In this document: one piece after another, positions 1 to 11,624 of the stretch
Layout of the letters: each line of letters opens with the position of its first letter
How positions within the stretch are numbered: the first letter of the stretch is position 1
IMG/VR virus record: IMGVR_UViG_3300011741_000001
Span: 124,001 to 188,000 of that record
Length of the DNA: 64,000 nt
Source of the DNA: an uncultured virus (IMG/VR IMGVR_UViG_3300011741_000001)
Taxonomy: Duplodnaviria; Heunggongvirae; Uroviricota; Caudoviricetes
Direction: 5' to 3' (one strand)
Notes under the pieces: generated by a model
Seen by the model: the letters and a program-made list of their open reading frames with translations, nothing else
Database searches by the model: none
Told to the model about the DNA's origin: nothing
Translations under genes and position numbers: made by a program

Positions 1-3000
1 GTACCCGAACCGTTACTCGACGGTTATTCCGCCGGAAGGCCCGTTCTATCGTACCGGGCTGGAAATCTCAATCAACACCGTGGTCAACGGCGTAACCCAA
101 AAACAAATCCTGATTGAAGGGCTCGACTATTACCTCGGCTACTACTATAAAGAAGCCTCCGAGGCATTTAACGACGCCATCTTCGGCGGGATAATGCTCC
201 TCAACGCCACCGAGTGTAACTACAGCTTATACTCTGCCGGGCGCGAATACCGCATTCCTCAAACGGAAATCGGTAAGTGGCTTGTGCGCGAAGACATGAA
301 AGACCCGCGTAACGAAGACTGGTCTGCATTAATGTCTTACGCCCCGACCATCCCCGCTATCGATCCGCCGGCGGATATGGATGAAGCCATTCTGCGTGAC
401 GAGATTGTCGCGGCACTGAATGACATCCGTAACGGACTGGTCGAACGCGCGTCTGAGATGGATGAGGCGTATGCGGACGTCACTGATTTAATCTACACCA
501 CCGGGAAGAAGATTTTTGATGACGGGTTGTATCAACACCATCTGTTGAAATCACAGGGGCACTCGTACACGGCAGACGATATCGGCGCGTTGGGTGTCAG
601 CGGTAAAGCGGTGGATGCCACCTACGCGTTTGGCATGGCGTTGAACACGTTAGTGACCATGATGTCCACCTCAGGCATTCAGGCCCAGCACCTCGCTCAG
701 TTGATGCGTAATGACACCGCCCTGAACAACGTGTTCGGTCGCCTGCGGGTGCTCAACAACAACGTCTTAACGTACAACACCGCGAACAATGACCACGTCA
801 TCACGTTCAAAGGGCCGAACATCCTCGTCTCCACCAAAAAGCCCCTGACCTTTACAGCAGATTCCGGTAACGGAAACGCAGGGCTGGCGGTTGAAATGGC
901 AGCCGGGCTGAACACGCTGATGGTGCACTCGGGTAACGAAGCACTGGCTCCGGTGTTCAACGGCGTGTATTTGATTACCCCGGACATGGTGGAAATGTAC
1001 CTGCACGCGGTGACCCTGAAAGCGGCCAACGGGTACATGGCCTCGACCGACACCGTGAAAGTGTACGGTTCCGGTAAGTCTTACTCGCCGTTCCGTCTGG
1101 AAGCGAACCTGCCGGACGCGGAGGTTGGTCTCAAAGGGTTGGTGAAGGTCACCAATAACCGTGCGACCGTTACCCCGGGCTATGCCATTTCGCAGTCGGG
1201 CATTACTGCGATGCGTGATTTGCTGGCCAACTACGTGGATGACACGTACACGGTGAACGGCAAAAGCTTTGACGCCAATCAGGCAATTGTTCTCACCACC
1301 ACCGATGTTGGAGTGGAGAAGATGAACAACACCGCACCGGTGGATAAGCCGGTGACCAAAGCGTTAACAGTAGCACTCGCCGGTAAAGCCCTGTCAACAC
1401 ACACCCACACGCTGGCCGATGTCACGGACGTGCCGTACGCGTCCTCAACAGCCGCTGGACTGGTGTTGTTGTGGAACCTGTTGGATGAGTCAACCGATCG
1501 GGTGGTCACGTCTAAGCAGGGTTACACGCTGCAATTGACACTGGCGGATTTGGAGTCGAAAGCCGCCGGGTTAATCCCCACGTGGGCGGTGTTAGGGTCG
1601 TCGTACGGGAACCTGAGTTTCCTGCCGATTCCCACCTCCGGGAATTACACCGGTTTCGCCCAGTTGCTCACCAACGATGCGTCGGTTGTGGTAAAGGAAG
1701 AGAACAACAAGGTTTACGTGCTGCGTAACGCCAGTGACGGTTATCCCGGTTCAGAGAAGGTGCTCTACTGGTCAGCGGACATCGTTTCAAACCAGATAAC
1801 GAATGCCTCGCCGACAACCGCCCGTTACACACCGGCCGGTTTAGCAGCCATTGCACCGGGCGTGACCCTGAGTAAAATCATTGCACCGGGCGAAGACGGT
1901 GCGGTGTTTGTGGGCAGTGACAACAACTGGTATCTGGTGTTGTTTGACGGCACCATCAACATGGCCAAACACACCCGTGTCGCTCGCATTACTGTCCCTG
2001 CGGTCTCTTCAAGTGTCACCCAGAAAGCCACGAACCCGAATGAAAGTCGGGTGGTGGTCACCAGTGATAAAGTGTTGCTGTTGCAGGCGGTGTTGAACAA
2101 CGACGACTTCTATACCGTCGCATGGACAGCCCCCCTCAGTGACTTTGGCAGCAAAACCGATATCACACTGGCGATACTGAAACTCACCGGCAAGTACGTC
2201 GACGGGGACATCGGACGTTTCGTGACGCAAGGTCAGAAATCCACTGACCCGGCCACGAACAACCTCTGGTACTCCAATGCAGAAGCACTGGCGAAGTGGA
2301 GTTCCCCGGCGGTAGTCTCGTACACCCGCCGTACAGTAATGGCGGCGTACAAAGACGGCAAGGTGCGTGTGCGTTTACACCCGCGCGGTCGTCCAACCGG
2401 AACCACGGCGAGCATTCTCGGCCCGGCATGGACAGTGTCGTACGTGATTGATCTCGCCACCGGTAACGTTACACTGGACGATGACTACTTCCCACTGTTC
2501 TTAGGTGTGGACGGGGTAGAGTTCCCGAAAGGGACGTACGGCGTCACCTCATTAGGGGTGGCTTACGGTGCCTCGTACATGACGGCGTTCCTGAACAACG
2601 GAATTGTCTACTGGTGTGGTGGCAGCGAGACAGAGGATAACCTCTATCGTGGCTCTACCGCCCAGACAGACAACTTCGCAGCACTGCGTTGGGATAACCT
2701 CATCAACCAGCAGTACAACGTGGTGCCGGTGCTGGGACCGTACGGTACGGTGTACGGTTTCCGTGAGCGTGGGATGGTGCATCTGGGTGGGACGTCGAAA
2801 CAGGCGTTATTCCGTCAGCGCAGTACCGCCATTTGCATGCGCAGCGCGTACAACCCGGATGGGACGTACGGGGTACCGAACTACGGTGGTTGGGGCCCCA
2901 GCAACGATCGTTCTGCGGTCTCCCAGACCGACTACGAAAACGTGTGTCGTTTGGGGTACGTGTGGGACGGCAGTAAATGCTACCTGAACGGCACGTCATT

Positions 3001-4933
3001 CAATGCAGCCGGTTCACAGGCGTACAAAAACAACGCGGGTTCCACCACGCTGACCACTGACCGGATTACCGTGTCAGCCCAGCAGTGGACGGATTACGAG
3101 AACTTCATCAATACGAACCTCCCGGACTGGAGCAATGCGGCCACCGAGATGCGTAACTATTGGTTGAGCTTCTTTGACATCGGTGGACTCAACGTGTGTA
3201 TTGCCGCCATCGAGTACACGCAGAAGAACAGCGACGGAGTGTACGTCAATTATACGTACATCTTTAAAATCCCGTTCACGTTCAACAGCAATGCCCTCGT
3301 ACTGAACTGGGCTACCGCGGTCACGGTACTGAACAAAGCCAGTTACACCATCAACACCACCGGGTTACAGTTAGCGGACTCGAACATCAACCAGATGCGT
3401 CTGATCAAGTGCGCAGACGGTTGGGTGATTCGTACCCGTATCCTGAGCCGTTGGTTGACTACCGGGACGGCGTCTAATGTGGCGTATACACTGCGTTGTG
3501 ACACCAACTGGGCAAACTGGAAAGCCGCCCGTTCGGCGTTCTACGTGGGCAGTGGGGAACTCGACCTGATTCACATGCCAGAAACTAATGAAATCGTGCA
3601 AGGCGGTTTTGTTTACTCTGGGGTGTATCTCGGGGGTGTGGCGTATCCGGGTAACACCATTAACTTCGACACGCAAGCGGGTCGGAACGTGGTGCTGTTT
3701 GGGCCGCAGGTGGAAACCGGGGCGATTCAGTACATCACGGAAGCGCAGCGTTTCTTCATCGGTTCCGCAGAGTACACGTTACCGCAGTACAGCATCAATT
3801 TTGCAACGGCGTTCACCAACTGGCAGAACTCGACCTTCTATTTCTACGCAGAGACGTACACGGATGGCGGTGTGTTAAAAGCACGCTACACGGTCACGCA
3901 GACACTGAGCCCGGATACGGACACCCGTCTGTATATCGGTTACGTGAAAACGAACGACACGACCATCAGTGAAACGAACATCAATGCGGTGAAACGCTTA
4001 GGCGGGATTCGTCAGCTGAAAGAACACATGGGGACAGTGTATCGTCACGATATCAACCCGAGCCGTGAGTTCCGTGAATCACCGTTAGCATTGCTGAAGC
4101 CGGTTGCTATCGGTACCGCCGGTGACACCTTTGCTGGGCAGTCTGCGTTGTCGGATAACGTGGGTGTGCGTCTGACCCGTCCTACGATTAACCGTTATGT
4201 TCCGGCCTCACAGCCGTGGTACAGCGGGGCCTCGTTGGCGGAATTGTTCTGGCGTACCCCGCGTGCCGTGGCGGTGACCTCAGCAGAGAACGCGGATGCG
4301 GCGGCACTCGGATTAATCTGGATTGACATTAACCAGCGGAGTATGCCGGGCTTGGGTGCATACGGCACCAAGTTCAAAGTCAACACCACCACCGGAACCT
4401 TGCGTATTCAATTTTCCGTGGACGATTACTGCAACATCTATATCGATGGGGTACGTGTCGCGAGTGGTGCCACCAGTGGCAGCTCGGTGTTGAAAACACT
4501 GGACTTCCCGGTGTCGAACGGACAGCACACGGTGGCGATTGAAACGGTGCAGGCAGAAACGGTGGGTGGGACGATTTGTCACATTGCCTTTATTGCCTAC
4601 GACTGGAACGGTACCGCCGGTCGTGAGTTGTACCGCAGCTCCAGTGCCAGCAAAGTGGGCTGGACAACGTCGCAGGGCAACACCGCCGGGAACATGGATG
4701 TGCTGGAGACTATCTCCCACGTCTACACCCCGGAGAGCGGCAAAACCGCGGTTATCTCCGTGGTGGCTCCGGAAATCCCCTACGCTCCACGCTGGCAACA
4801 ACGTGACCCGAGTACCGGGAACCTTGAGGTGGTTATCGCTTCGAAGTTCTTCGGCCCGGATGGGGCAATGGTGACGCTGACCGAGATAACCGTCAATCTT
4901 ATGTTAATCCCAACGAGTGATTTGTCGTCTTAA
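1..4933 (+). CDS. Large tail fibre / virion structural protein, 5'-truncated
   Basis: Frame 2 is open from position 2 (YPNRYSTVIPPEGPFYRTGL...), so the gene starts upstream of the window. It has fibre-type repeats (HTHTLADVTD, ASSTAAGLVLL), a long beta-rich body, and a C-terminal DDYCNIYIDG beta-sandwich-like segment. Confidence 0.75.
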   Translation, partial: YPNRYSTVIPPEGPFYRTGLEISINTVVNGVTQKQILIEGLDYYLGYYYKEASEAFNDAIFGGIMLLNATECNYSLYSAGREYRIPQTEIGKWLVREDMKDPRNEDWSALMSYAPTIPAIDPPADMDEAILRDEIVAALNDIRNGLVERASEMDEAYADVTDLIYTTGKKIFDDGLYQHHLLKSQGHSYTADDIGALGVSGKAVDATYAFGMALNTLVTMMSTSGIQAQHLAQLMRNDTALNNVFGRLRVLNNNVLTYNTANNDHVITFKGPNILVSTKKPLTFTADSGNGNAGLAVEMAAGLNTLMVHSGNEALAPVFNGVYLITPDMVEMYLHAVTLKAANGYMASTDTVKVYGSGKSYSPFRLEANLPDAEVGLKGLVKVTNNRATVTPGYAISQSGITAMRDLLANYVDDTYTVNGKSFDANQAIVLTTTDVGVEKMNNTAPVDKPVTKALTVALAGKALSTHTHTLADVTDVPYASSTAAGLVLLWNLLDESTDRVVTSKQGYTLQLTLADLESKAAGLIPTWAVLGSSYGNLSFLPIPTSGNYTGFAQLLTNDASVVVKEENNKVYVLRNASDGYPGSEKVLYWSADIVSNQITNASPTTARYTPAGLAAIAPGVTLSKIIAPGEDGAVFVGSDNNWYLVLFDGTINMAKHTRVARITVPAVSSSVTQKATNPNESRVVVTSDKVLLLQAVLNNDDFYTVAWTAPLSDFGSKTDITLAILKLTGKYVDGDIGRFVTQGQKSTDPATNNLWYSNAEALAKWSSPAVVSYTRRTVMAAYKDGKVRVRLHPRGRPTGTTASILGPAWTVSYVIDLATGNVTLDDDYFPLFLGVDGVEFPKGTYGVTSLGVAYGASYMTAFLNNGIVYWCGGSETEDNLYRGSTAQTDNFAALRWDNLINQQYNVVPVLGPYGTVYGFRERGMVHLGGTSKQALFRQRSTAICMRSAYNPDGTYGVPNYGGWGPSNDRSAVSQTDYENVCRLGYVWDGSKCYLNGTSFNAAGSQAYKNNAGSTTLTTDRITVSAQQWTDYENFINTNLPDWSNAATEMRNYWLSFFDIGGLNVCIAAIEYTQKNSDGVYVNYTYIFKIPFTFNSNALVLNWATAVTVLNKASYTINTTGLQLADSNINQMRLIKCADGWVIRTRILSRWLTTGTASNVAYTLRCDTNWANWKAARSAFYVGSGELDLIHMPETNEIVQGGFVYSGVYLGGVAYPGNTINFDTQAGRNVVLFGPQVETGAIQYITEAQRFFIGSAEYTLPQYSINFATAFTNWQNSTFYFYAETYTDGGVLKARYTVTQTLSPDTDTRLYIGYVKTNDTTISETNINAVKRLGGIRQLKEHMGTVYRHDINPSREFRESPLALLKPVAIGTAGDTFAGQSALSDNVGVRLTRPTINRYVPASQPWYSGASLAELFWRTPRAVAVTSAENADAAALGLIWIDINQRSMPGLGAYGTKFKVNTTTGTLRIQFSVDDYCNIYIDGVRVASGATSGSSVLKTLDFPVSNGQHTVAIETVQAETVGGTICHIAFIAYDWNGTAGRELYRSSSASKVGWTTSQGNTAGNMDVLETISHVYTPESGKTAVISVVAPEIPYAPRWQQRDPSTGNLEVVIASKFFGPDGAMVTLTEITVNLMLIPTSDLSS

Positions 4934-4978
4934 CTGAACTGTGGGGGCAGGGATGCCTCCTCGTAAGGGAGCTTGGAG

Positions 4979-6178
4979 ATGAGTGATATTATTTTCCAGT
5001 ATCCGCTTGACTTAAAAGGGTCACTGACATCGAACGCGGTATCCATCCCCGTCGTGTTAGGTTCCGGTAAAGTCAATCGGTCATTTGCGTTTCCGGCTGG
5101 CCCGTTCTACGCAGAATCGTTTAAACTCCGCTCAGTGAGTTCACCGGCTACCCCGTATAAACGCGGGACGGACTTTGAACTTATCTTTGCGCACAACGCA
5201 TACCAGAAACTCTCGGGCAACCAAGAGATTTGCATGGCCGTGGTTGTGACCAACAGTGCTGTCCCGACGGATATCGTGGTGTCGGCACAGGTCGTCGGGG
5301 GTCCACAGTCCGCAAACATCGTGGCTATTAAAGACGCGATTATTGCACTGAACCTCGATAACCAGAAAGTCAATTTTGCTGATTTGATTGACTTCCCGGA
5401 CACCTTACCGGGTGCCCCGGCGTTCAAAGATATCGGTGACATGTATGGTTTCGAGTACATCATTGCGATGCTCTCGGGGATTATCGATGTTATCGGGTCA
5501 GGTTCTGCAGTTCAGTTGGAGAAAATCAAGGACATCATCGAAAGCATCAAGAACAATTTCCTCGATGCCTTGAACAACCACATCAATGCCACGGGCAACG
5601 TTCACGATCTGGATATCCATCAGATTGACGGCTTGACCGCAACGGAAATTCGTCAGCTGATTGCTGGCGTACAGGCGGCCATTGATGCAACTGTATTGCA
5701 AATCAACGACCTGAAAGCTGCGGACAACACCATCAACGTCCGCATCGACGGCATCATCAATTCACTGGCCACGTTTACTGACCAGCTGAACACGGTAGAC
5801 CAAAACTACCAGAAGATGACGTTGATTGTCGCGAACCTGAACTCGCTCGTGTTGTCGCTGCAGAAAACCATCGGTGAGATGCAGCAACGTGAAGATGCGA
5901 TGCAGGCAGAAATCGATGACCTGAAATCCGGGGCCAGCGATAGTCAGCAGCAGATTGACCAGCTGCGTACCGACCTGACCGCATTGGCCCGTCGTGTCAC
6001 CGCGAACGAAGGGAACATCTCGACCGTGAGTCAAACGCTTTCGAACCACCTGTCAGCAGCCGACCCGCACACCCAGTACCTGCACAAACAGTACGGTGGT
6101 ACTGTGCAGGCGAACGTCCACGTCAACGCGAACCTTACCACGCGTGATGACGTCCAGGCGGATGCCGGTACCAAATAA
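4979..6178 (+). CDS. Virion structural / tail fibre-associated coiled-coil protein
   Basis: The N-terminal domain (PAGPFY...GTDFEL) is paralogous to that of the upstream gene. It has a long heptad coiled coil and a HLSAADPHTQY fibre motif. ATG at 4979 preferred over TTG at 4973. Confidence 0.7.
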   Translation: MSDIIFQYPLDLKGSLTSNAVSIPVVLGSGKVNRSFAFPAGPFYAESFKLRSVSSPATPYKRGTDFELIFAHNAYQKLSGNQEICMAVVVTNSAVPTDIVVSAQVVGGPQSANIVAIKDAIIALNLDNQKVNFADLIDFPDTLPGAPAFKDIGDMYGFEYIIAMLSGIIDVIGSGSAVQLEKIKDIIESIKNNFLDALNNHINATGNVHDLDIHQIDGLTATEIRQLIAGVQAAIDATVLQINDLKAADNTINVRIDGIINSLATFTDQLNTVDQNYQKMTLIVANLNSLVLSLQKTIGEMQQREDAMQAEIDDLKSGASDSQQQIDQLRTDLTALARRVTANEGNISTVSQTLSNHLSAADPHTQYLHKQYGGTVQANVHVNANLTTRDDVQADAGTK

Positions 6179-6242: not shown

Positions 6243-6632
6243 ATGGCGATCTCACTTAAAGACTTAAGTGCCCGTCTTGACCGAGTCCAGGCTGCGACCG
6301 GCGCTTCAGTTGACGCACAGGTCAATAGCAAGGTTCATAACGCCAATTTATTGGGCGGTCAAAATACCGCGTGGGCACGGTGTAACGGGTCGTGTAGCTG
6401 GACCTGTTCTTCGGGTTGTAGCCACGGGTGTTCAAGTTGTTCTGGAAGCTGTAGCGGTGTCTGTACGGGGAACTGCAGTGGTTCGTGTTCTGGGGGTTGC
6501 GGCGGCGGGTGTTCTGCAACGTGTTCCGGTGGCTGTGGTGGCGGATGTGCGGGTGCTTGTAGTGGCGCGTGCTCCGGTGGATGCAGTTCCGGCTGTACCG
6601 GCAGTTGTGGTGCAGGCTGTAGCGGACCTTAG
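6243..6632 (+). CDS. CXXX-repeat Cys/Gly/Ser-rich peptide 1 (probable radical SAM substrate)
   Basis: 46-aa Cys-free N-terminal part, then 21 Cys almost all at period 4, ending CSGP. RBS AAGGAAAGG upstream. Confidence 0.85.
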   Translation: MAISLKDLSARLDRVQAATGASVDAQVNSKVHNANLLGGQNTAWARCNGSCSWTCSSGCSHGCSSCSGSCSGVCTGNCSGSCSGGCGGGCSATCSGGCGGGCAGACSGACSGGCSSGCTGSCGAGCSGP

Positions 6633-6640
6633 GAGCAATC

Positions 6641-7069
6641 ATGGCAATTTCATTAAAGACTATCGCTGCGCGCGTAGCAAACATCGAAAACACCGCATTA
6701 AAGACTCAGGCAGGCGTACAAACGTACATTGCTGGCCGCACCACGAACAACGCGGATTTGTTTGGCGGGCAAAACCCGTCTTACTACCACTGCGGGGGCA
6801 CGTGTAGCTGGACGTGTAGTAACGGCTGTTCAGGAGGGTGTACCGGTAACTGTTCGTCGGGCTGCAGTTCGGCGTGTTCTGGTAACTGTTCTTCCAGTTG
6901 TACGGGAGGCTGTGCGGGGAGCTGTGGCGGTAACTGTGGGGGTGGTTGTTCAGGTGGTTGTTCTGGCGGGTGCTCTGGTACCTGTTCGGGCAAATGCTCT
7001 GGCGGCTGTTCTGGCGGTTGTAGCTCGGGCTGTACCGGTTCGTGCGGGGCTGGGTGTTCTGGACCGTAG
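6641..7069 (+). CDS. CXXX-repeat Cys/Gly/Ser-rich peptide 2 (probable radical SAM substrate)
   Basis: Paralogue of peptide 1 (MAISLK start). 23 Cys at perfect period 4, last 20 aa identical to peptide 1. RBS AGGAG. Confidence 0.85.
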   Translation: MAISLKTIAARVANIENTALKTQAGVQTYIAGRTTNNADLFGGQNPSYYHCGGTCSWTCSNGCSGGCTGNCSSGCSSACSGNCSSSCTGGCAGSCGGNCGGGCSGGCSGGCSGTCSGKCSGGCSGGCSSGCTGSCGAGCSGP

Positions 7070-7077
7070 GAGGACGC

Positions 7078-7287
7078 ATGGCTGTCAGTGAAAAAGATAT
7101 CGGTAACCGGGTACGGATTGTAGAAGGGTATATTACCACGGCGCAAGCCAACAGCTACATCGCGAACTCGGGGACGTGTAACAACACCAACAACTTGGGC
7201 GGCATTCGTGCCGGGGCGTATAACTGCGGGGGAACGTGCAGTTGGACTAGCTCCGGGGGTGCGAAAGGCATCACTGCGCCGAGTTAA
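7078..7287 (+). CDS. Short third paralogue of the CXXX-repeat peptides (69 aa)
   Basis: ATG 7078 after GGAGGA. Sequence MAVSEKDIGNRV...NTNNLGG...YNCGGTCSWT keeps the leader and first repeat motif but lacks the long Cys array. Confidence 0.75.
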   Translation: MAVSEKDIGNRVRIVEGYITTAQANSYIANSGTCNNTNNLGGIRAGAYNCGGTCSWTSSGGAKGITAPS

Positions 7288-7299
7288 CAGGGGAAACCA

Positions 7300-8226
7300 A
7301 TGAAGAGTAACGATCATCTTGCTTATCGCACCAGTCTGAATTACCCGCTTCAGATTGCCTCACCGGATTCGGTTAATGCACACGTCAATGACCAACTCCG
7401 GCTGATTGCGATGGATCAGTTCGACTGGCCTAAGCTGCGCGGTCGCGATTTTGTTAACAAAACGTACACCGTGACAGACGAAACCACCGTGGGCAAGCTG
7501 AACGTGAAATCCGTCCAGTTCGCACAAGGCGGTGGCGGCTATACCGGGAAACTTATTGACGATAAGTATTTCTTTACAGATGCGGTGTTAAACTATGCGC
7601 CGGATTTGGAATTGATGTTCTCGTCGTTTAAAGAACTCGGTTGTCGTCCGGTGTGCGTGCGCAGTTACAGCAGCGATTACTGCGGTAGCTGGGTGTCCCT
7701 GTTTAAGATTGTGGGTGCCGGTCAGGGCGGAGTGGAAATCAATCGTGAGAAGTACCATCCGTTTACCGGATTGGATGCGGCGAACATTGACTGCTTAGCC
7801 GACCTGCTGGCGTTCAGTTATAAGTTTGCGTGGAATGCAGCAGACCAGACATGGCAGTACGTGGATGACCTGCAACTGCAAACCCAACGCATTCGTAAAC
7901 CGTGGATGGCGTATCTGACGCAATGCGAATTCGGTGCGGTACCGAACTCCAGTGCCGATGACCACAAGCTGATTCGTTTCCTGCTGCAATCACAACGCAG
8001 CGAGTTCACGGAAGAGCAGCAAACCGCTTTAGCACCGTTTTTCGAATCCCCGGTTGAACTGGACGAGTTAACCCGTATGGGTGAGCGTCAGAAAGTTCTT
8101 AACGCGTTGTACGACGCGTATCGCTCGCCGCGCTTGATTAAAGCCGGTGAAGATGTACGTGACACTGACCCCCTGTTTTCGTTCCAACGTCGCCTGTACG
8201 GAATGACGGATGCGAACGCTAACTAA
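7300..8226 (+). CDS. Hypothetical protein in the radical SAM operon
   Basis: 308-aa ORF tightly packed between the peptides and the first radical SAM gene (17-nt overlap). No family recognised. Confidence 0.7.
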   Translation: MKSNDHLAYRTSLNYPLQIASPDSVNAHVNDQLRLIAMDQFDWPKLRGRDFVNKTYTVTDETTVGKLNVKSVQFAQGGGGYTGKLIDDKYFFTDAVLNYAPDLELMFSSFKELGCRPVCVRSYSSDYCGSWVSLFKIVGAGQGGVEINREKYHPFTGLDAANIDCLADLLAFSYKFAWNAADQTWQYVDDLQLQTQRIRKPWMAYLTQCEFGAVPNSSADDHKLIRFLLQSQRSEFTEEQQTALAPFFESPVELDELTRMGERQKVLNALYDAYRSPRLIKAGEDVRDTDPLFSFQRRLYGMTDANAN

Positions 8227-9109
8227 AGACATCTTCTCACCCGCCAAGACCATTAACGTGGCATTGACGGCGAAGTGTAACCTGAACTGCGCGTTTTGTG
8301 CGGGTGAGATGCACATGGTCAAGGGGGATGTGTCTCGTAAAACCCATATAGAGGCAATGATGGAGTTACTTAAAAAGAATCCCGAAGTGGAGGAGATCAT
8401 CTGGACTGGCGGTGAGCCGTTACTGGCTTACAACAAACTGGTCGAGTCGGTCGAAGTGATGCGACAGCAGCGTCCGAGTGCTGTGCATTACCTGTTCACG
8501 AACGGGCGTAAGCTGCGCTTAGAGCAAGTCGATTTCTTGAAAACCTTCCATCGTGTGGTCGTCTCTATTGATGGCTATGACAACATGGAACGTGCGCTGA
8601 TGGACTTTGCCCGCTCGGGTGATAACGAAGCGTTCGAAACCATCGCAGCATTGGATAATGTCATTCTGTGGTCAGTGCTTACCCGTGAACGTGTCGGGAA
8701 CATGCGCTGGTTCGAAGACATGATGCAAATGCAAAATGCAATTCACCACCTCGGCTTTATCGGCATGAACTATTTGTTCGATAATCAGATGCCGAAGATT
8801 TTATCACCTGACCACGTCCTGAACTTCACGTACGGCTTTGATTTGCTGCGCGACAATATGCGTCGTCTGAATAAGATGAATGGTCGCGAGACGATTATCA
8901 AGTTGGAGAAGTTCTTCCCAATGGACAGCTGCAACGCATGCAGTGAAATTATCGTCAGCCAACCCAATGGTGATGTGCAGGTGCCGGAGAACCAAGAGAT
9001 TATCGTTGACCGTGGTTGCAACAAGATTGCCCACGCGATTGGTAAGCCGGCCTACGACTACATCATGAATTGGATGAACCCAATCAAACAACCTAAAGAC
9101 GGGAGATAG
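8210..9109 (+). CDS. Radical SAM protein
   Basis: CNLNCAFC (CX3CX2C) motif, WTGGEP, FTNG, SIDG. C-terminal CNAC...GC residues. Confidence 0.92.
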   Translation: MRTLTKDIFSPAKTINVALTAKCNLNCAFCAGEMHMVKGDVSRKTHIEAMMELLKKNPEVEEIIWTGGEPLLAYNKLVESVEVMRQQRPSAVHYLFTNGRKLRLEQVDFLKTFHRVVVSIDGYDNMERALMDFARSGDNEAFETIAALDNVILWSVLTRERVGNMRWFEDMMQMQNAIHHLGFIGMNYLFDNQMPKILSPDHVLNFTYGFDLLRDNMRRLNKMNGRETIIKLEKFFPMDSCNACSEIIVSQPNGDVQVPENQEIIVDRGCNKIAHAIGKPAYDYIMNWMNPIKQPKDGR

Positions 9110-9110
9110 G

Positions 9111-10496
9111 ATGGACGCCACGTATCAGATAGTAACCAACCTATCATGCAACCTCGACTGCGAATACTGCTATGAACGCAAATACCCGCGTAACAACAAA
9201 GTGGCAGACGTGGTCGACTTTATTCACGCCTGTTTTAATCGTGATGTCAATCGTTTCCATAATGACATTAATGGTATTATTATTGATATCATTGGTGGCG
9301 AGCCGTTCATGCAGCCGAAGCTATTATACGCTGCATTCGAAACTGCGGAAGAACTGTGTAAGAAACACAACCTCCCGTACGTGTTCTCCATCTCGACCAA
9401 CGGCACGCTGTTCAACAAACCGCTGGCGCTCGAAATTCTGAACCGTTGGAAAGACGTGTTGTCTCTCGGCGTGTCGATTGACGGCCTGCCAGAAACCCAC
9501 GACCGTTACCGTATCTACACCACGTCCCGTAATGGTTCGTACGCAGATGCCGTTGCAGGTTATCACCTCGCCAAAAACATCGGTGTGCGTGAGATGGGCG
9601 TGAAAGCAACGTTCACCAAAGAAACCCTGATGCAATACGCGGCGGGTATGAAGTCACTGATTGACGTGACCGGCGGTGGTCGTCTGTACGGCAACGTGGT
9701 GTTTGAAGACGTGTTACCGCGTCAGATGGCGCTGGAGATTGCTAACCAGTTCATCGAAGTGGCCGAGTATTTCATCGAGAAGGGTTTGCACTTAGACCCG
9801 GAATCGGAAATCGGTCACGTGTTGCCAGACGGTCTGAACGTTGACCAGCTGTGGAACCCGGACTGGCGTGATAAGCTGATTCACGATGACGAAGTGCGCT
9901 ACAACAAAGAGCGTCTGCGTCCGCACTGCGGTACCACCGTGTACATGACCTGTCTCGGCTTTGACCGGAATATCTTCGGGTGTAACCGTTTCATGTCCAC
10001 CGTGACCACCCGTCAGGCTATCGGTAAACTCGAAGGCCAGACGATTGTGAACACCGACGGCGGGAAACTGTTGGCGGAAGTGCAGGAGCAGTGGAAGTCG
10101 TATCCGGATCAATGTATCGGTTGTCCTGCGAAGCACCTGTGCGCGTCGTGTGTGGCCGCTGCTTACGAGAACGGTGACGGCGAAGAAGATGCGCGTAAAG
10201 CGTATCACGGCGAACGTCGCCAGTGCGGTTGGACGACTGCGAAGCTGCTGGTTGCCCAGTGGTGGAAACAGCGTTTTGGTTCGTACGAGTCGCAGTATGA
10301 CAAGTCGGTGTGTAACTGTTACCAGTGCCGCCAGAAGCGCAACCTCGAAGCGGAATTCGCCGCTCAGGATGCAGCAGAACGCCCATTACACTTCACCGCT
10401 ATGAAAGAAGTGACCATGGCCGTTGAACAAACCCCTCGCAAGGAACAATTCAAAAATGAAGAACCTGCTGATCCAGGATTTTACGAAGTTCGATAG
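9111..10496 (+). CDS. Radical SAM/SPASM peptide maturase (CXXX-repeat target type)
   Basis: CNLDCEYC, IIGGEPF, STNGTL, SIDG..ETHD. SPASM-like Cys set CGT...GCNRF...CIGCPAKHLCASC...C, plus an extra CNCYQC. Confidence 0.92.
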   Translation: MDATYQIVTNLSCNLDCEYCYERKYPRNNKVADVVDFIHACFNRDVNRFHNDINGIIIDIIGGEPFMQPKLLYAAFETAEELCKKHNLPYVFSISTNGTLFNKPLALEILNRWKDVLSLGVSIDGLPETHDRYRIYTTSRNGSYADAVAGYHLAKNIGVREMGVKATFTKETLMQYAAGMKSLIDVTGGGRLYGNVVFEDVLPRQMALEIANQFIEVAEYFIEKGLHLDPESEIGHVLPDGLNVDQLWNPDWRDKLIHDDEVRYNKERLRPHCGTTVYMTCLGFDRNIFGCNRFMSTVTTRQAIGKLEGQTIVNTDGGKLLAEVQEQWKSYPDQCIGCPAKHLCASCVAAAYENGDGEEDARKAYHGERRQCGWTTAKLLVAQWWKQRFGSYESQYDKSVCNCYQCRQKRNLEAEFAAQDAAERPLHFTAMKEVTMAVEQTPRKEQFKNEEPADPGFYEVR

Positions 10497-11004
10497 CCGC
10501 AAAATCGAAGCGTTTCTGCAACACCATAAGCTGTTTAACGTGCATGCGATTGTGCCGGCAGATGCGTTTACGGATCAGTGGTTGAAACTCATGAACCGTT
10601 TTGCTATTAACGTGGTCGTGCCTTTGGACGGCGTCGATGATACGCACAACGGGTTGTTCGAAAGTGAGAAGCGTAACCCCGGTTTAGAAGCACGACTGTT
10701 AGCGGCTCCGGCCTCTAAGCTGAACATCCTGTTCCAGTCGTCATTAGAACCGGGTCACGGTAAAGCAGTGGCGCTGGCGCTGTCGTTCCCAGAGGTGCCG
10801 GTGTGGATGGTTCGTAACCCGGAAGGTCCATGCCAGTATTTTGACGACATGCAATTAGTGCGTGCGTTTGATGCAAATGATGCACCACTCCCGAACGTAC
10901 AGTATCGTTTAGACTTGCGTGCCGACTTCTACCCCGTGTCGTATGAGACGTTAACGAAGTCGGGTATTGTTGGAGAAAATGAATGCTTAGTGCTGGTGAA
11001 ATAA
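10456..11004 (+). CDS. Degenerate radical-SAM-like protein
   Basis: ATG 10456 (MKNLLIQD) preferred. VVVPLDGVDDTHN resembles the SIDG..ETHD strand of radical SAM barrels, but there is no CX3CX2C motif. Confidence 0.55.
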   Translation: MKNLLIQDFTKFDSRKIEAFLQHHKLFNVHAIVPADAFTDQWLKLMNRFAINVVVPLDGVDDTHNGLFESEKRNPGLEARLLAAPASKLNILFQSSLEPGHGKAVALALSFPEVPVWMVRNPEGPCQYFDDMQLVRAFDANDAPLPNVQYRLDLRADFYPVSYETLTKSGIVGENECLVLVK

Positions 11005-11624
11005 AAGCCCGCTTCGAGCAGAACCAAGGGATGATTGACCGTAATGGGTTGTTCTTTGACCCGAACGGTGAAATCTCGTTGGCGCAGCGTTTGCATTATG
11101 CATTGCTGGAAGGCTTGAGCGAAAAGGATGCGTTACGGAACCTGCAAGCGGATGGGGCGTCAGAGTTTGAGGCGAACTACACGCTGAAGCAGACCAAAAC
11201 GTTCATTAAAGATGTGCTGGAGATTGACATCGACAGTTACATCAAAGAGCAGCAGTCAACCACCGCGTACTCGTACCGTGAACTCGACACCAAACTCGAG
11301 GAAGCGAACACAGCGTATGCGGCAGCGGTGACCGCGGACATTACGTACAAAGACCACCAGTTCCAAACCAGTGAGGGTACCCTCTCCACACTGGGCAGCT
11401 ACGTACAGACCGAGACCTGGCCTGAGTATTGGGTCAGTTCGGATAACGCGGCAGTGGAAGACTGGACGGCTGACGACACGAAGCAGTTGTATGCGCTGAT
11501 TGTCGCCCGTAATGCCCAGCTGCATGTGGCACTCACTGCGTACAAAGTCCGTCTGCGTGCATTCGCAGAACAGGGCAATTACGCAGCGTTAAAAGCAGCG
11601 GAGTTTAATCCGTCTGTGGAGTGA
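10983..11624 (+). CDS. DUF4376-like tail fibre-associated protein
   Basis: C-terminal ITYKDHQFQT...WVSSDNA...TADD..QL...H...LK-type pattern typical of DUF4376. Confidence 0.6.
   Translation: MLSAGEIKARFEQNQGMIDRNGLFFDPNGEISLAQRLHYALLEGLSEKDALRNLQADGASEFEANYTLKQTKTFIKDVLEIDIDSYIKEQQSTTAYSYRELDTKLEEANTAYAAAVTADITYKDHQFQTSEGTLSTLGSYVQTETWPEYWVSSDNAAVEDWTADDTKQLYALIVARNAQLHVALTAYKVRLRAFAEQGNYAALKAAEFNPSVE

What the first reader, a model, noticed from the sequence alone, without database searches (positions are those of the whole stretch)
6243..7287. The 'leader' regions look like tail-fibre segments rather than RiPP leaders
Seen: all three peptides start with an amphipathic heptad-like helix (LKDLSARLDRVQ, LKTIAARVANIE, EKDIGNRVRIVE). 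Each then has NANLLGGQNTAW / NADLFGGQNPSYY / NTNNLGGIRAGAY immediately before CxGxCSWT. Established: a (N/D)ADxLDG..xsYY motif is a common repeat in trimeric phage tail fibres. Inference: the peptides trimerise, possibly as a heterotrimer of the three paralogues, and display the modified Cys/Gly array as a fibre tip. The GG in this motif could alternatively be a double-glycine cleavage site, but no C39 peptidase is present.
Basis: partly seen in the sequence, partly recalled or inferred. Interest (0 to 1): 0.75.

Follow-up and report, generated by a model that had tools for sequence, protein, structure and literature searches.

The report
Fibre-shaft heads on phage cysteine-ladder proteins
Three small cysteine-ladder proteins of a giant Erwinia phage begin with a piece of tail-fibre shaft, not a throw-away leader, so the neighbouring radical-SAM enzymes probably modify a part of the virus particle.

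Summary
Three paralogous genes, A (6243-6632), B (6641-7069) and C (7078-7287), share a ~50-residue head ending in CxGxCSW. A and B then carry 21 and 23 Cys spaced every four residues.

- A profile of the head alone aligns with an internal segment of longer proteins (250-400 aa): hhalign probability 96%, E 2.3e-9.
- In those proteins the order is coiled coil, NADLLDGQHGSYYR, CxNxCSWTC, then a C-terminal Cys ladder. Ten of 13 have tail-fibre N-terminal parts.
- One such fibre sits between baseplate and sheath genes, next to the same enzyme kit.
- B's motif is the best match in the whole phage genome to the common NADxLDG tail-fibre motif.
- The Gly-Gly is not conserved, and the genome has no C39 peptidase.
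- A model co-folds the three heads in register (score 0.73, best control 0.04).
- The A/B/C triad is conserved in all relatives examined.

Not shown: presence in virions, the chemistry, and heterotrimer versus homotrimers. Public records mis-annotate these genes, so published virion proteomics could not have detected them.

Earlier notes of this scan reached the same reading on other genomes. I found no paper describing it.

The parts
4973..6178 (+). 401-aa coiled-coil virion protein directly upstream of the three peptides. It is the orthologue of SPN3US gp167.
   Evidence: phrog_2163 'virion structural protein', E 2.8e-97. Weak coiled-coil hits in Pfam. SPN3US gp167 is listed among virion proteins in supplement file 4 of PMC5694885. 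No significant profile match to the peptide heads (E 0.02) or to the fused fibres (E 0.014).
6243..6632 (+). Protein A, 129 aa. The head is residues 1-54 (6243-6404), ending in CNGSCSWT. The ladder holds 21 Cys, spaced four apart except for one spacing of three.
   Evidence: phrog_6085 E 1.9e-30. TIGR04114 at 27.9 bits against a cut-off of 20. A has 21 Cys in 18 of 18 genomes.
6641..7069 (+). Protein B, 142 aa. The head is residues 1-58 (6641-6814), with NNADLFGGQNPSYYH-CGGTCSWT. The ladder holds 23 Cys, all spaced four apart.
   Evidence: phrog_6085 E 4.4e-35. TIGR04114 at 27.9 bits. Its motif ranks 1 of 257,708 six-frame positions of the genome against a tail-fibre motif matrix.
7078..7287 (+). 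Protein C, 69 aa. It has the same head and CGGTCSWT, then only 12 more residues and no ladder.
   Evidence: phrog_6085 E 4.7e-23. Many short relatives are in the protein library. Some relatives carry an added C-terminal domain of about 140 aa (P0012).
7300..8226 (+). 308-aa protein of unknown fold (phrog_8030), a conserved member of the enzyme kit.
   Evidence: phrog_8030 E 1.8e-123. AlphaFold2 mean pLDDT 83.2. No fold match: Foldseek best E 0.019, VIA-align best Z 4.7. A weak relative (E 1.2e-5) lies between the two radical-SAM genes of locus L158.
8210..9109 (+). Radical SAM enzyme 1, 299 aa.
   Evidence: PF04055 E 1.5e-13. phrog_1802 E 1e-60. In loci L016 and L017 it lies between genes A and B.
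9111..10496 (+). Radical SAM enzyme 2, 461 aa, with a Cys-rich C-terminal region that matches radical SAM/SPASM maturase models nearly full length. It is the likely ladder-modifying enzyme.
   Evidence: Best NCBIfam hit is TIGR04115, the CXXX-repeat-target maturase: E 2e-31, 109.8 bits, below its cut-off of 350. Next is PapB, E 1.9e-29. A relative lies within 71 of 74 phage loci that hold a Cys-ladder protein.
10456..11004 (+). 182-aa protein (phrog_7988) with a partial beta/alpha barrel. It has no CxxxCxxC motif in its first residues.
   Evidence: phrog_7988 E 6.1e-64. AlphaFold2 mean pLDDT 79.2. Foldseek finds sialic-acid aldolase 5afd and the radical SAM enzyme Cfr 9p0p, both E 8.8e-4, and QueE 5tgs.
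10983..11624 (+). 213-aa DUF4376 protein that closes the conserved block.
   Evidence: PF14301 E 2.7e-6. phrog_8169 E 3.1e-75. Present in all 17 related IMG/VR loci. That DUF4376 is common in tail-fibre assembly proteins is my recollection, not a call.

Best explanation
The first ~50 residues of A, B and C are a retained structural piece, not a leader that is cut off.

**What the head is.** It is the last coiled-coil turns of a phage fibre shaft, followed by the NADxLDG-type knot found in many tail fibres, followed by a CxGxCSW junction. In other phages this same piece is an internal segment of a normal tail-fibre protein, and the cysteine ladder forms that protein's far (C-terminal) end. In SPN3US- and Wellington-like giant phages the module has become three stand-alone genes.

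**How it most likely works (inferred).**
- The three heads zip together in parallel and in register, most likely as one A:B:C trimer.
- This brings the two ladders (21 and 20-23 Cys) and the short C cap side by side.
- The adjacent kit (radical SAM 1, the phrog_8030 protein, radical SAM 2 and the phrog_7988 protein) modifies the Cys ladder. Thioether cross-links are the most likely product.
- The finished module is mounted on the virion's fibre apparatus. The 401-aa coiled-coil virion protein encoded just upstream is the obvious candidate for its mount.

**Shown here:** homology of the head to fibre segments, linkage to the enzyme kit, and conservation of the triad and of the Cys count.

**Inferred:** oligomer make-up, chemistry, and presence and place in the particle.
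For: 1. **Homology of the head.**
- The head-only profile A2 (35 sequences, stops at CSW) against an alignment of 12 longer proteins gives hhalign probability 96.2%, E 2.3e-9, with columns 7-57 matching 132-182.
- A MAFFT alignment is collinear from the first heptads to the ladder.

2. **Longer relatives.**
- Among the 120 listed of 155 longer relatives of the ladder (250-2000 aa), 19 matched the CxGxCSW junction pattern.
- Thirteen of these read ...coiled coil...N[AS]DLLDGQHGSYYR-CxNxCSWTC.
- All 13 hit phrog_6085, the match reaching into the head part of the profile to differing extents. Ten hit tail-fibre or tail PHROGs in their N-terminal parts, for example P0071 with phrog_7037 at E 1.6e-34 and P0118 with phrog_910 at E 2.4e-20.

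3. **Locus L158 (a 32.9 kb phage contig).** The gene order is baseplate wedge, tail protein, fibre genes, a 401-aa fibre with collagen-like GxY runs and this C-terminal module, radical SAM, a phrog_8030-like gene, radical SAM, tail sheath.

4. **The motif.** A 16-column matrix built from 61 tail-fibre motif segments scores B's TNNADLFGGQNPSYYH at 13.8 bits. That is rank 1 of 257,708 positions in the phage's six frames, and the next best scores 6.4. The top three PDB hits of the motif profile are the T4 long-tail-fibre proximal subunit (5nxf, 5nxh, 9x3r), but weakly, at E 0.13-0.49.

5. **The helix.** Head residues 5-34 match nine tandem repeats of a 654-aa phage fibrous protein, P0022 (E 1.1e-6 in 1.84 billion proteins). 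The repeats of P0022 in turn resemble tail needle gp26 (E 6.2e-5), reovirus sigma-1 and T4 fibritin.

6. **Co-folding.** The complex model of the three heads scores 0.73 against a best control of 0.04. That mark was reached by 116 of 157 solved complexes and 2 of 215 mismatched pairs. The runs share at least 79% of contacts and the partner's pLDDT is 71. Contacts are in register over residues 3-50.

7. **Conservation.**
- A and C were found in all 7 loci checked, and B in 6 of them; the B gene of pEa_SNUABM_11 printed there lies unannotated in the public record. In the 18 genomes, A was found in 18, B in 17 and C in 12. My ATG-only caller misses C copies with other start codons.
- A has 21 Cys in 18 of 18; B has 20-23.

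8. **Against cleavage.** The first Gly of 'GG' varies. No C39 peptidase is in the genome. No peptidase, exporter or recognition-element family was found in the nine neighbouring proteins or in the two folds.

9. **A relative with an added domain.** Some relatives of C continue after the junction into a non-Cys domain of about 140 aa (P0012). Its cluster has 9 members on contigs of up to 225 kb.

10. **Linkage of ladder and enzyme.** Seventy-one of 74 phage loci with a ladder protein hold a relative of radical SAM 2.
Against: - **No direct evidence that A, B or C are in virions.** The SPN3US virion lists name gp167 but none of gp163-166. This says little either way, because the A/B/C genes are absent from or mis-framed in the annotation that was searched.
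- **A and C match the tail-fibre motif matrix poorly.** Neither is in the top 12. The direct profile match of the head to the motif alone is weak (E 0.003, probability 10%).
- **No solved structure matches the head profile** (best E 0.53, ankyrin repeats).
- **The complex model has limits.** It used my own alignments and three chains, which is unlike its calibration. Paralogues can pass in place of the true partner.
- **Only 1 of the 68 ladder loci outside the SPN3US group has the exact CxGxCSW junction**. Most fused ladder proteins have other shaft ends.
- **A conserved N-terminal piece shared by several precursors is also what a leader looks like.** In CrpA, an N-terminal domain helps enzyme binding (PMC13692751, passages read).
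- **How a stand-alone module would attach to the particle is unknown.** The 401-aa neighbour shows no detectable homology to the shafts of the fused fibres.
Confidence: 0.62

Rival explanations
1. Classical RiPP. The head is a leader that guides the radical SAM enzymes and is then cut off, perhaps by a host protease. The free modified Cys ladder acts as a diffusible product, for example an antibacterial, a metal binder or an anti-defence factor.
For: - The ladder meets the NCBIfam model for radical-SAM target CXXX repeats (TIGR04114, 27.9 bits against a cut-off of 20). The enzyme's best hits are peptide maturases, TIGR04115 and PapB.
- Three precursors share a conserved N-terminal part and differ in their Cys-rich part.
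- A published cyanophage paper reads a phage radical SAM maturase as an 'antibiotic synthesis gene' (PMC12801897, passages).
Against: - In relatives the head is an internal segment of tail-fibre proteins.
- The 'GG' is not conserved.
- No C39 or other peptidase, exporter or immunity gene was found.
- C has almost no core to release.
- The fixed Cys count and the place inside the tail-fibre block do not fit a free product.
- P0012 carries a folded-looking domain after the junction.
Confidence: 0.1
2. Same structural role, but each paralogue forms its own homotrimer (A3, B3, C3) rather than one A:B:C heterotrimer. This would give up to three kinds of tip.
For: - The fused relatives are single genes, so their fibres would carry three identical ladders.
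- The complex tool states that close cousins of a true partner also pass, so the score of 0.73 does not discriminate.
Against: - All three types are kept in fixed order across genera whose heads are only 35-60% identical.
- The C type is always ladder-less or nearly so, and the ladder lengths of A and B stay within a few residues of each other. This looks like one co-assembled unit.
- In the model, replacing B with an unrelated protein dropped C's score to 0.04.
Confidence: 0.18
3. Fibre-derived but not part of the particle. The three proteins act in the infected cell as a scaffold, chaperone or decoy for fibre assembly, or as a metal or iron-sulfur carrier. The radical SAM enzymes may act on another substrate.
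For: - None of SPN3US gp163-166 appears in the virion lists I could search.
- A DUF4376 protein, and further downstream a gene that public records call a tail assembly chaperone, lie close by.
- Cys every fourth residue could bind metals. This is my inference.
Against: - The proteomic absence carries no weight, because the genes were not in the database searched.
- In fused relatives the ladder is covalently the end of the fibre.
- Ladder and radical SAM 2 relatives travel together in 71 of 74 loci.
Confidence: 0.1

Closest known systems
NCBIfam CXXX-repeat radical SAM system (TIGR04114 target repeat, TIGR04115 maturase)
   Same: It has a Cys-every-fourth-residue repeat next to a radical SAM/SPASM-type enzyme. 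A and B pass the TIGR04114 cut-off, and TIGR04115 is the best hit of radical SAM 2.
   Different: - The enzyme scores 109.8 bits against a cut-off of 350, so it is a distant relative.
- No other NCBIfam family hit the kit's two unknown proteins.
- The targets here carry a fibre-shaft head and lie in a phage tail-fibre block.
- My four literature searches on this theme found no paper on the chemistry of this family.
CrpC/CrpA of Methanococcus voltae (PMC13692751; abstract and passages read)
   Same: A radical SAM/SPASM enzyme installs thioether (ranthionine) links on a Cys-rich repeat protein rather than on a short peptide. An N-terminal domain of the substrate is shared with a paralogue (CrpB) and contributes to enzyme binding.
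   Different: - CrpC belongs to TIGR04463 and carries a recognition element. TIGR04463 scores only E 2.2e-15 on radical SAM 2, whose radical SAM motif begins at about residue 13, leaving no room for an N-terminal recognition domain.
- The CrpA repeats are 17 residues long with CxxQ/D. The ladders here have no Asp, Glu or Gln.
- CrpA has no known link to a virus particle.
PapB/PapA (freyrasin) ranthipeptide system
   Same: It is the second-best hit of radical SAM 2 (E 1.9e-29). As I recall, its substrate has repeated Cys-X3 units, each closed into a small thioether ring.
   Different: The acceptor in PapA is Asp (recalled). The ladders here hold only Gly, Ser, Thr, Ala, Asn and one Lys between the Cys. 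The score of 102.9 bits is far below the cut-off of 340.
Trimeric phage fibres with the NADxLDG...S.F/Y motif, such as the T4 long-tail-fibre proximal subunit gp34 (5nxf, 5nxh, 9x3r)
   Same: The motif precedes the ladder in the same place as in fused fibre proteins. The gp34 chains are the top three PDB hits of the motif profile.
   Different: The PDB matches are weak (E 0.13-0.49). T4 gp34 has no Cys ladder and no radical SAM partner. In A and C the motif has diverged.
Gly-rich adhesin tips of T-even-like phages (gp38 of phage S16, a polyglycine-II sandwich). This is recalled, not tested.
   Same: A glycine-rich, low-complexity array at the far end of a tail fibre serves host recognition.
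   Different: gp38 has no regular Cys and no modifying enzymes. No comparison was run here.

Membership tests
phrog_6085 (phage protein family of unknown function) | Significant full-length match to the family profile | tested here: met
   A: E 1.9e-30 over profile positions 1-128. B: E 4.4e-35. C: E 4.7e-23 over positions 1-66.
CXXX-repeat radical SAM target (TIGR04114) | Score at or above the curated cut-off of 20 bits | tested here: met
   A and B score 27.9 bits each. C has no hit.
CXXX-repeat-target radical SAM maturase (TIGR04115) | Score at or above the curated cut-off of 350 bits | tested here: not met
   Radical SAM 2 scores 109.8 bits, E 2e-31. This is its best hit and covers profile positions 7-344 of 359. 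It is a distant relative, not an equivalog.
Double-glycine-leader peptides (class II bacteriocin type) | Conserved Gly-Gly (or Gly-Ala/Ser) at the leader end, plus a C39 peptidase-transporter | tested here: not met
   The first Gly varies (G, A, S, N) and only the second is 90% or more conserved in 35 heads. PF03412 gives 0 matches in the 239.5 kb genome, which is 99% complete, while 7 of 14 control genomes match.
Ranthipeptides of the PapA/PapB type | Cys-X3-Asp/Glu acceptor motif in the core; maturase above the NF047865 cut-off of 340 | tested here: not met
   There is no Asp or Glu in the cores of A, B or C. PapB scores 102.9 bits.
Phage tail-fibre proteins carrying the NADxLDG...S.[FY] junction motif | The motif is present beyond chance | tested here: met
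   B ranks 1 of 257,708 positions, at 13.8 bits against 6.4 for the next. A and C are not in the top 12. So this is met for B only. The heads as a family align with the motif-bearing segment of fused fibres at E 2.3e-9.
Phage tail-fibre proteins | Trimeric assembly | tested here: inconclusive
   Model only: score 0.73 against a best control of 0.04, with in-register contacts. It does not separate a heterotrimer from homotrimers.
Phage tail-fibre proteins | Presence in the purified virion | not testable with these tools
   The published SPN3US lists were searched, but the genes were not in the annotation used.
RiPP precursor with a recognition-element-bound leader | A recognition element, fused or discrete, in the cluster | tested here: inconclusive
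   No such family hit in Pfam, NCBIfam or PHROGs for the nine proteins. The two unknown proteins gave no such fold. An absent match does not exclude it.

The most novel reading that the evidence does not exclude
Giant enterobacterial phages, and many smaller phages, use peptide-antibiotic-type radical SAM chemistry to staple the far end of a host-recognition fibre. Here the tip has been split off as three genes. Their fibre-shaft heads form an A:B:C heterotrimer that holds two exactly counted Cys ladders (21 Cys in A in every genome) and a cap in register for enzymatic cross-linking, possibly between chains. This would be the first enzymatically cross-linked structural organ of a virus particle.
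Probability: 0.45. Interest if true: 0.85.

Novelty: new variant of a known kind. Interest (0 to 1): 0.78.

Why it matters
Radical SAM/SPASM maturases are known as makers of small secreted peptides. One 2026 paper extends them to a Cys-rich archaeal protein of unknown role (PMC13692751).

If the reading here holds, the same chemistry builds part of a phage's host-binding apparatus. That would be a new way to harden or tune a virion appendage, and a new class of post-translational modification in virus particles.

There is also a practical point. In model phages such as SPN3US and Kwan these genes are missing, mis-framed or called on the wrong strand. Proteomic and genetic maps of these well-studied giant phages therefore have a blind spot exactly at a likely host-recognition part.

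For the RiPP field it is a warning. A conserved N-terminal region upstream of a modified core is not necessarily a leader.

Tried and rejected
- **Head profile against PDB sequences.** Only chance-level hits: ankyrin designs at E 0.53 and nitrate reductase.
- **HMMER with a 22-column motif model over the genome's six frames.** It gave only noise and missed the peptides. I replaced it with an ungapped matrix.
- **Head against the 401-aa neighbour** (E 0.02, probability 2%), **motif against the 401-aa protein**, and **the 401-aa protein against the fused fibres** (E 0.014). None shows a usable relation.
- **Word-indexed search with B's head among proteins of similar length.** One candidate only, because these genes are rarely called.
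- **RTX protein P0020.** It was a hit of the head profile, but I judged it spurious: it is made of haemolysin-type repeats.
- **Six of the 19 junction-pattern matches** (P0053, P0057, P0078, P0111, P0127, P0148). I dropped them before the PHROG scan because the match lay inside a ladder with no NAD-type motif before it.
- **Protein atlas look-up of P0012's added domain.** Best score 0.75, uninformative.
- **Loci for P0012, P0017 and P0087 in IMG/VR.** Only the head part matched, or nothing did.
- **Fold of the 308-aa protein.** No match in Foldseek PDB or in the wide VIA-align search.
- **Sequencing runs.** No RNA holder was listed, so nothing can be said on expression.
- **Literature.** Seven searches on this theme found no description of radical-SAM-modified phage fibre proteins: SPN3US with radical SAM; CXXX, radical SAM, repeat, phage; the TIGR numbers and 'CXXX repeat'; jumbo phage, radical SAM, SPASM; tail fiber, radical SAM, thioether; phage-encoded, RiPP, radical SAM, virion; and SPN3US virion mass spectrometry. 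Subscription journals are not covered by that library.
Full report
**What is there.** The window belongs to a 239.5 kb Erwinia jumbo phage of the Wellington/Kwan kind. A 6.8 kb stretch around the finding is 77-78% identical in DNA to pEa_SNUABM_11, Kwan and Wellington. The genome record is 99% complete.

Between 6243 and 7287 lie three tandem genes on the + strand.
- A is 129 aa, B is 142 aa and C is 69 aa. C starts at the ATG at 7078.
- Each begins with MA(I/V)S(L/E)K and an amphipathic stretch.
- Each then has N-x-(N/D)-x-(L/F)-G-G ... aromatic, then C-x-G-x-C-S-W-T.
- A and B continue with 21 and 23 Cys spaced every fourth residue among Gly, Ser and Thr, with no Asp or Glu.
- C stops 12 residues after the junction.
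- All three match phrog_6085. A and B pass the NCBIfam model for radical-SAM target CXXX repeats. My Pfam copy has no model for them.

**Neighbourhood.**
- Upstream lie a 1617-aa protein, the orthologue of SPN3US gp168, and a 401-aa coiled-coil virion protein (phrog_2163), the orthologue of gp167.
- SPN3US gp168-170 are described as baseplate or tail-fibre candidates that are absent from a tailless mutant. gp167 is listed among virion proteins (PMC5694885: main-text passages, supplement rows).
- Downstream lie a 308-aa protein (phrog_8030), two radical SAM enzymes, a 182-aa protein (phrog_7988), a DUF4376 protein, the endolysin and a DUF1353 protein.
- Radical SAM 2's best hit is the CXXX-repeat-target maturase model TIGR04115, at 109.8 bits and well under its cut-off. 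PapB comes next.

**Conservation.**
- The A, B, C order is present in Kwan, pEa_SNUABM_11, SPN3US, CR5, phiEaH2 and Phobos. It is also present in 17 IMG/VR loci fetched through the phrog_8030 neighbour.
- tblastn with B and with C each finds 62 phage records, from Erwinia, Salmonella, Cronobacter, Escherichia and Proteus phages.
- The whole block, from the 401-aa gene to the DUF4376 gene, is present in all 17 loci. In two of them radical SAM 1 sits between A and B.
- A has exactly 21 Cys in 18 of 18 genomes, B has 20-23, and C has 2 or 4. For a slippage-prone repeat, that is strong selection on length.
- Public annotation is poor. Kwan calls a wrong-frame ORF and an opposite-strand ORF over A and B. 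SPN3US has only a wrong-frame ORF (gp166) over B, and nothing for A or C.

- All 83 matches in the 80 fetched loci were in open frames. Typical context is ...V.NLNADLLDGQHGSYY....
- Of 50 scanned ORFs, picked by eye from the 75 distinct ones to avoid near-duplicates, 34 hit tail or tail-fibre PHROGs. Twelve hit nothing and 4 hit only other structural or unknown families.
- A 16-column matrix from 61 such segments puts B's TNNADLFGGQNPSYYH first among 257,708 six-frame positions of the phage's own genome, at 13.8 bits against 6.4 for the next. A and C are not in the top 12.
- The motif profile's top three PDB hits are the T4 long-tail-fibre proximal subunit, but weakly, at E 0.13-0.49.

**Testing the heads as a domain.**
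- A profile of 35 heads, cut at CSW (A2), searched against 1.84 billion representatives gave 25 hits at E 0.001 or better.
- Nearly all are short proteins of the same family.
- One hit is an RTX protein, which I judge spurious.
- Another is a 654-aa phage fibrous protein, P0022. Its nine tandem repeats align with head residues 5-34. Its repeat region resembles tail needle gp26, reovirus sigma-1 and fibritin.
- Two family members, P0012 and P0017, carry an extra non-Cys domain after the junction. P0012's cluster has nine members on contigs of up to 225 kb.

**The decisive result.**
- Following a lead from earlier notes of this scan, I searched for longer proteins that share the ladder. There were 155 at E 0.001 or better, and nearly all carry PF27846.
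- In 52 of the 120 listed, the longest ladder ends within 15 residues of the C-terminus.
- Thirteen have the very junction of the peptides, preceded by the canonical motif. An example is ...DDINELIDSLEERAGALEDKVEGGQVYNADLLDGQHGNYYR-CENGCSWTCS....
- All 13 match phrog_6085, the match reaching into the head part of the profile to differing extents. Ten have tail-fibre or tail N-terminal parts.
- The head-only profile aligns to this internal segment with probability 96.2% and E 2.3e-9. The alignment is collinear.
- In locus L158, a 32.9 kb phage contig, such a 401-aa fibre with collagen-like runs lies after the baseplate genes. It is followed by a radical SAM gene, a phrog_8030-like gene, a second radical SAM gene and the tail sheath gene.
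- Across 74 phage loci with ladder proteins, 71 hold a relative of radical SAM 2. The three exceptions are short loci or loci cut by a contig end. Six of the 74 are SPN3US-like. Of the other 68, only L158 has the exact junction.
- A different ladder protein (361 aa, 62 Cys) sits after the baseplate genes, next to a phrog_1802 radical SAM gene, in five further loci.

**Leader or not.**
- The 'GG' is not a conserved pair.
- No C39 peptidase is in the genome.
- No peptidase, exporter or recognition-element family turned up in the nine neighbouring proteins.
- The 308-aa protein folds confidently (pLDDT 83.2) but matches no known fold.
- The 182-aa protein is a partial beta/alpha barrel whose hits include the radical SAM enzymes Cfr and QueE.
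- None of this excludes host proteases, and the head may also serve enzyme recognition, as the N-terminal domain of CrpA does (PMC13692751).

**Oligomer.**
- A model of the three heads (A 1-62, B 1-66, C 1-69, each with its own alignment) scored 0.73, 0.73 and 0.74. The best of three controls scored 0.04.
- The mark was reached by 116 of 157 solved complexes and 2 of 215 mismatched pairs.
- The runs share at least 79% of contacts, and the partner's pLDDT is 71.
- Contacts run in parallel and in register over residues 3-50.
- The job differs from the tool's calibration, and paralogues may stand in for one another. It therefore supports co-assembly but not the stoichiometry.

**Verdict.** The heads are homologous to the shaft-to-ladder junction of tail fibres. 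Still unproven are trimer make-up, chemistry (thioether links are the best guess from the enzyme's relatives) and presence in the particle.

**Novelty.** The scan reached the same reading earlier on other genomes (e1-5838651, e1-5838658, e1-6257462). I re-derived it here from this window's own sequences. None of my seven literature searches found it in print.

Noticed in passing
L001 7342-8168 (Kwan); L003 7192-8221 minus strand (SPN3US): The A and B genes are missing or mis-called in public records. Kwan annotates a wrong-frame ORF (gp184) and an opposite-strand ORF (gp183). SPN3US annotates only a wrong-frame ORF (gp166 / ACQ60_gp100) and nothing for A or C. Proteomic searches against these annotations could not have found the proteins.
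   Followed up: partly
window 6381-6629 and 6791-7066; loci L007-L023: The number of Cys in A is exactly 21 in 18 of 18 genomes, although the heads are only 35-60% identical. B has 20, 21 or 23. Such a fixed count in a simple repeat implies a length-measured structure.
   Followed up: partly
L016 2413-3258; L017 2414-3259: In two metagenomic relatives, radical SAM 1 has moved to lie between genes A and B. The rest of the block is unchanged.
   Followed up: no
P0012, P0027, P0033 (209-210 aa); P0017 (147 aa): Some relatives of the short C protein continue after the CxxxCSW junction into a non-Cys domain of 80-140 aa that is probably beta-rich. They come from contigs of 222-225 kb. This may be a receptor-binding knob. 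The atlas look-up was uninformative.
   Followed up: partly
window 10456-11004: The phrog_7988 protein models as a partial beta/alpha barrel whose structural neighbours include the radical SAM enzymes Cfr and QueE. It has no CxxxCxxC motif in its first residues, so it may be a degenerate third radical-SAM-like subunit.
   Followed up: partly
window 7300-8226; L158 8312-9040: The phrog_8030 protein folds confidently but matches no solved fold. A distant relative sits between the two radical SAM genes of an unrelated small myovirus-like contig, so it is a core part of the kit.
   Followed up: partly
window 6268-6807 (+), 6322-6693 (-), 6660-7151 (-), 6784-7317 (-): Long open frames in other frames and on the opposite strand overlap A, B and C. 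They are by-products of the GC-rich repeat codons. These are the frames that some public annotations chose.
   Followed up: yes
L153 13549-14790: A reverse-transcriptase gene (phrog_1423, E 2.1e-59) lies a few kb downstream of the Cys-ladder and radical SAM pair in a ~62 kb phage contig. It may be a diversity-generating retroelement near the fibre genes.
   Followed up: no
window 80-4933: The 1617-aa protein upstream, the orthologue of SPN3US gp168, contains STHTHTLADV and ASSTAAGLVLL stretches. I recall these as typical tail-fibre motifs. They were not analysed.
   Followed up: no
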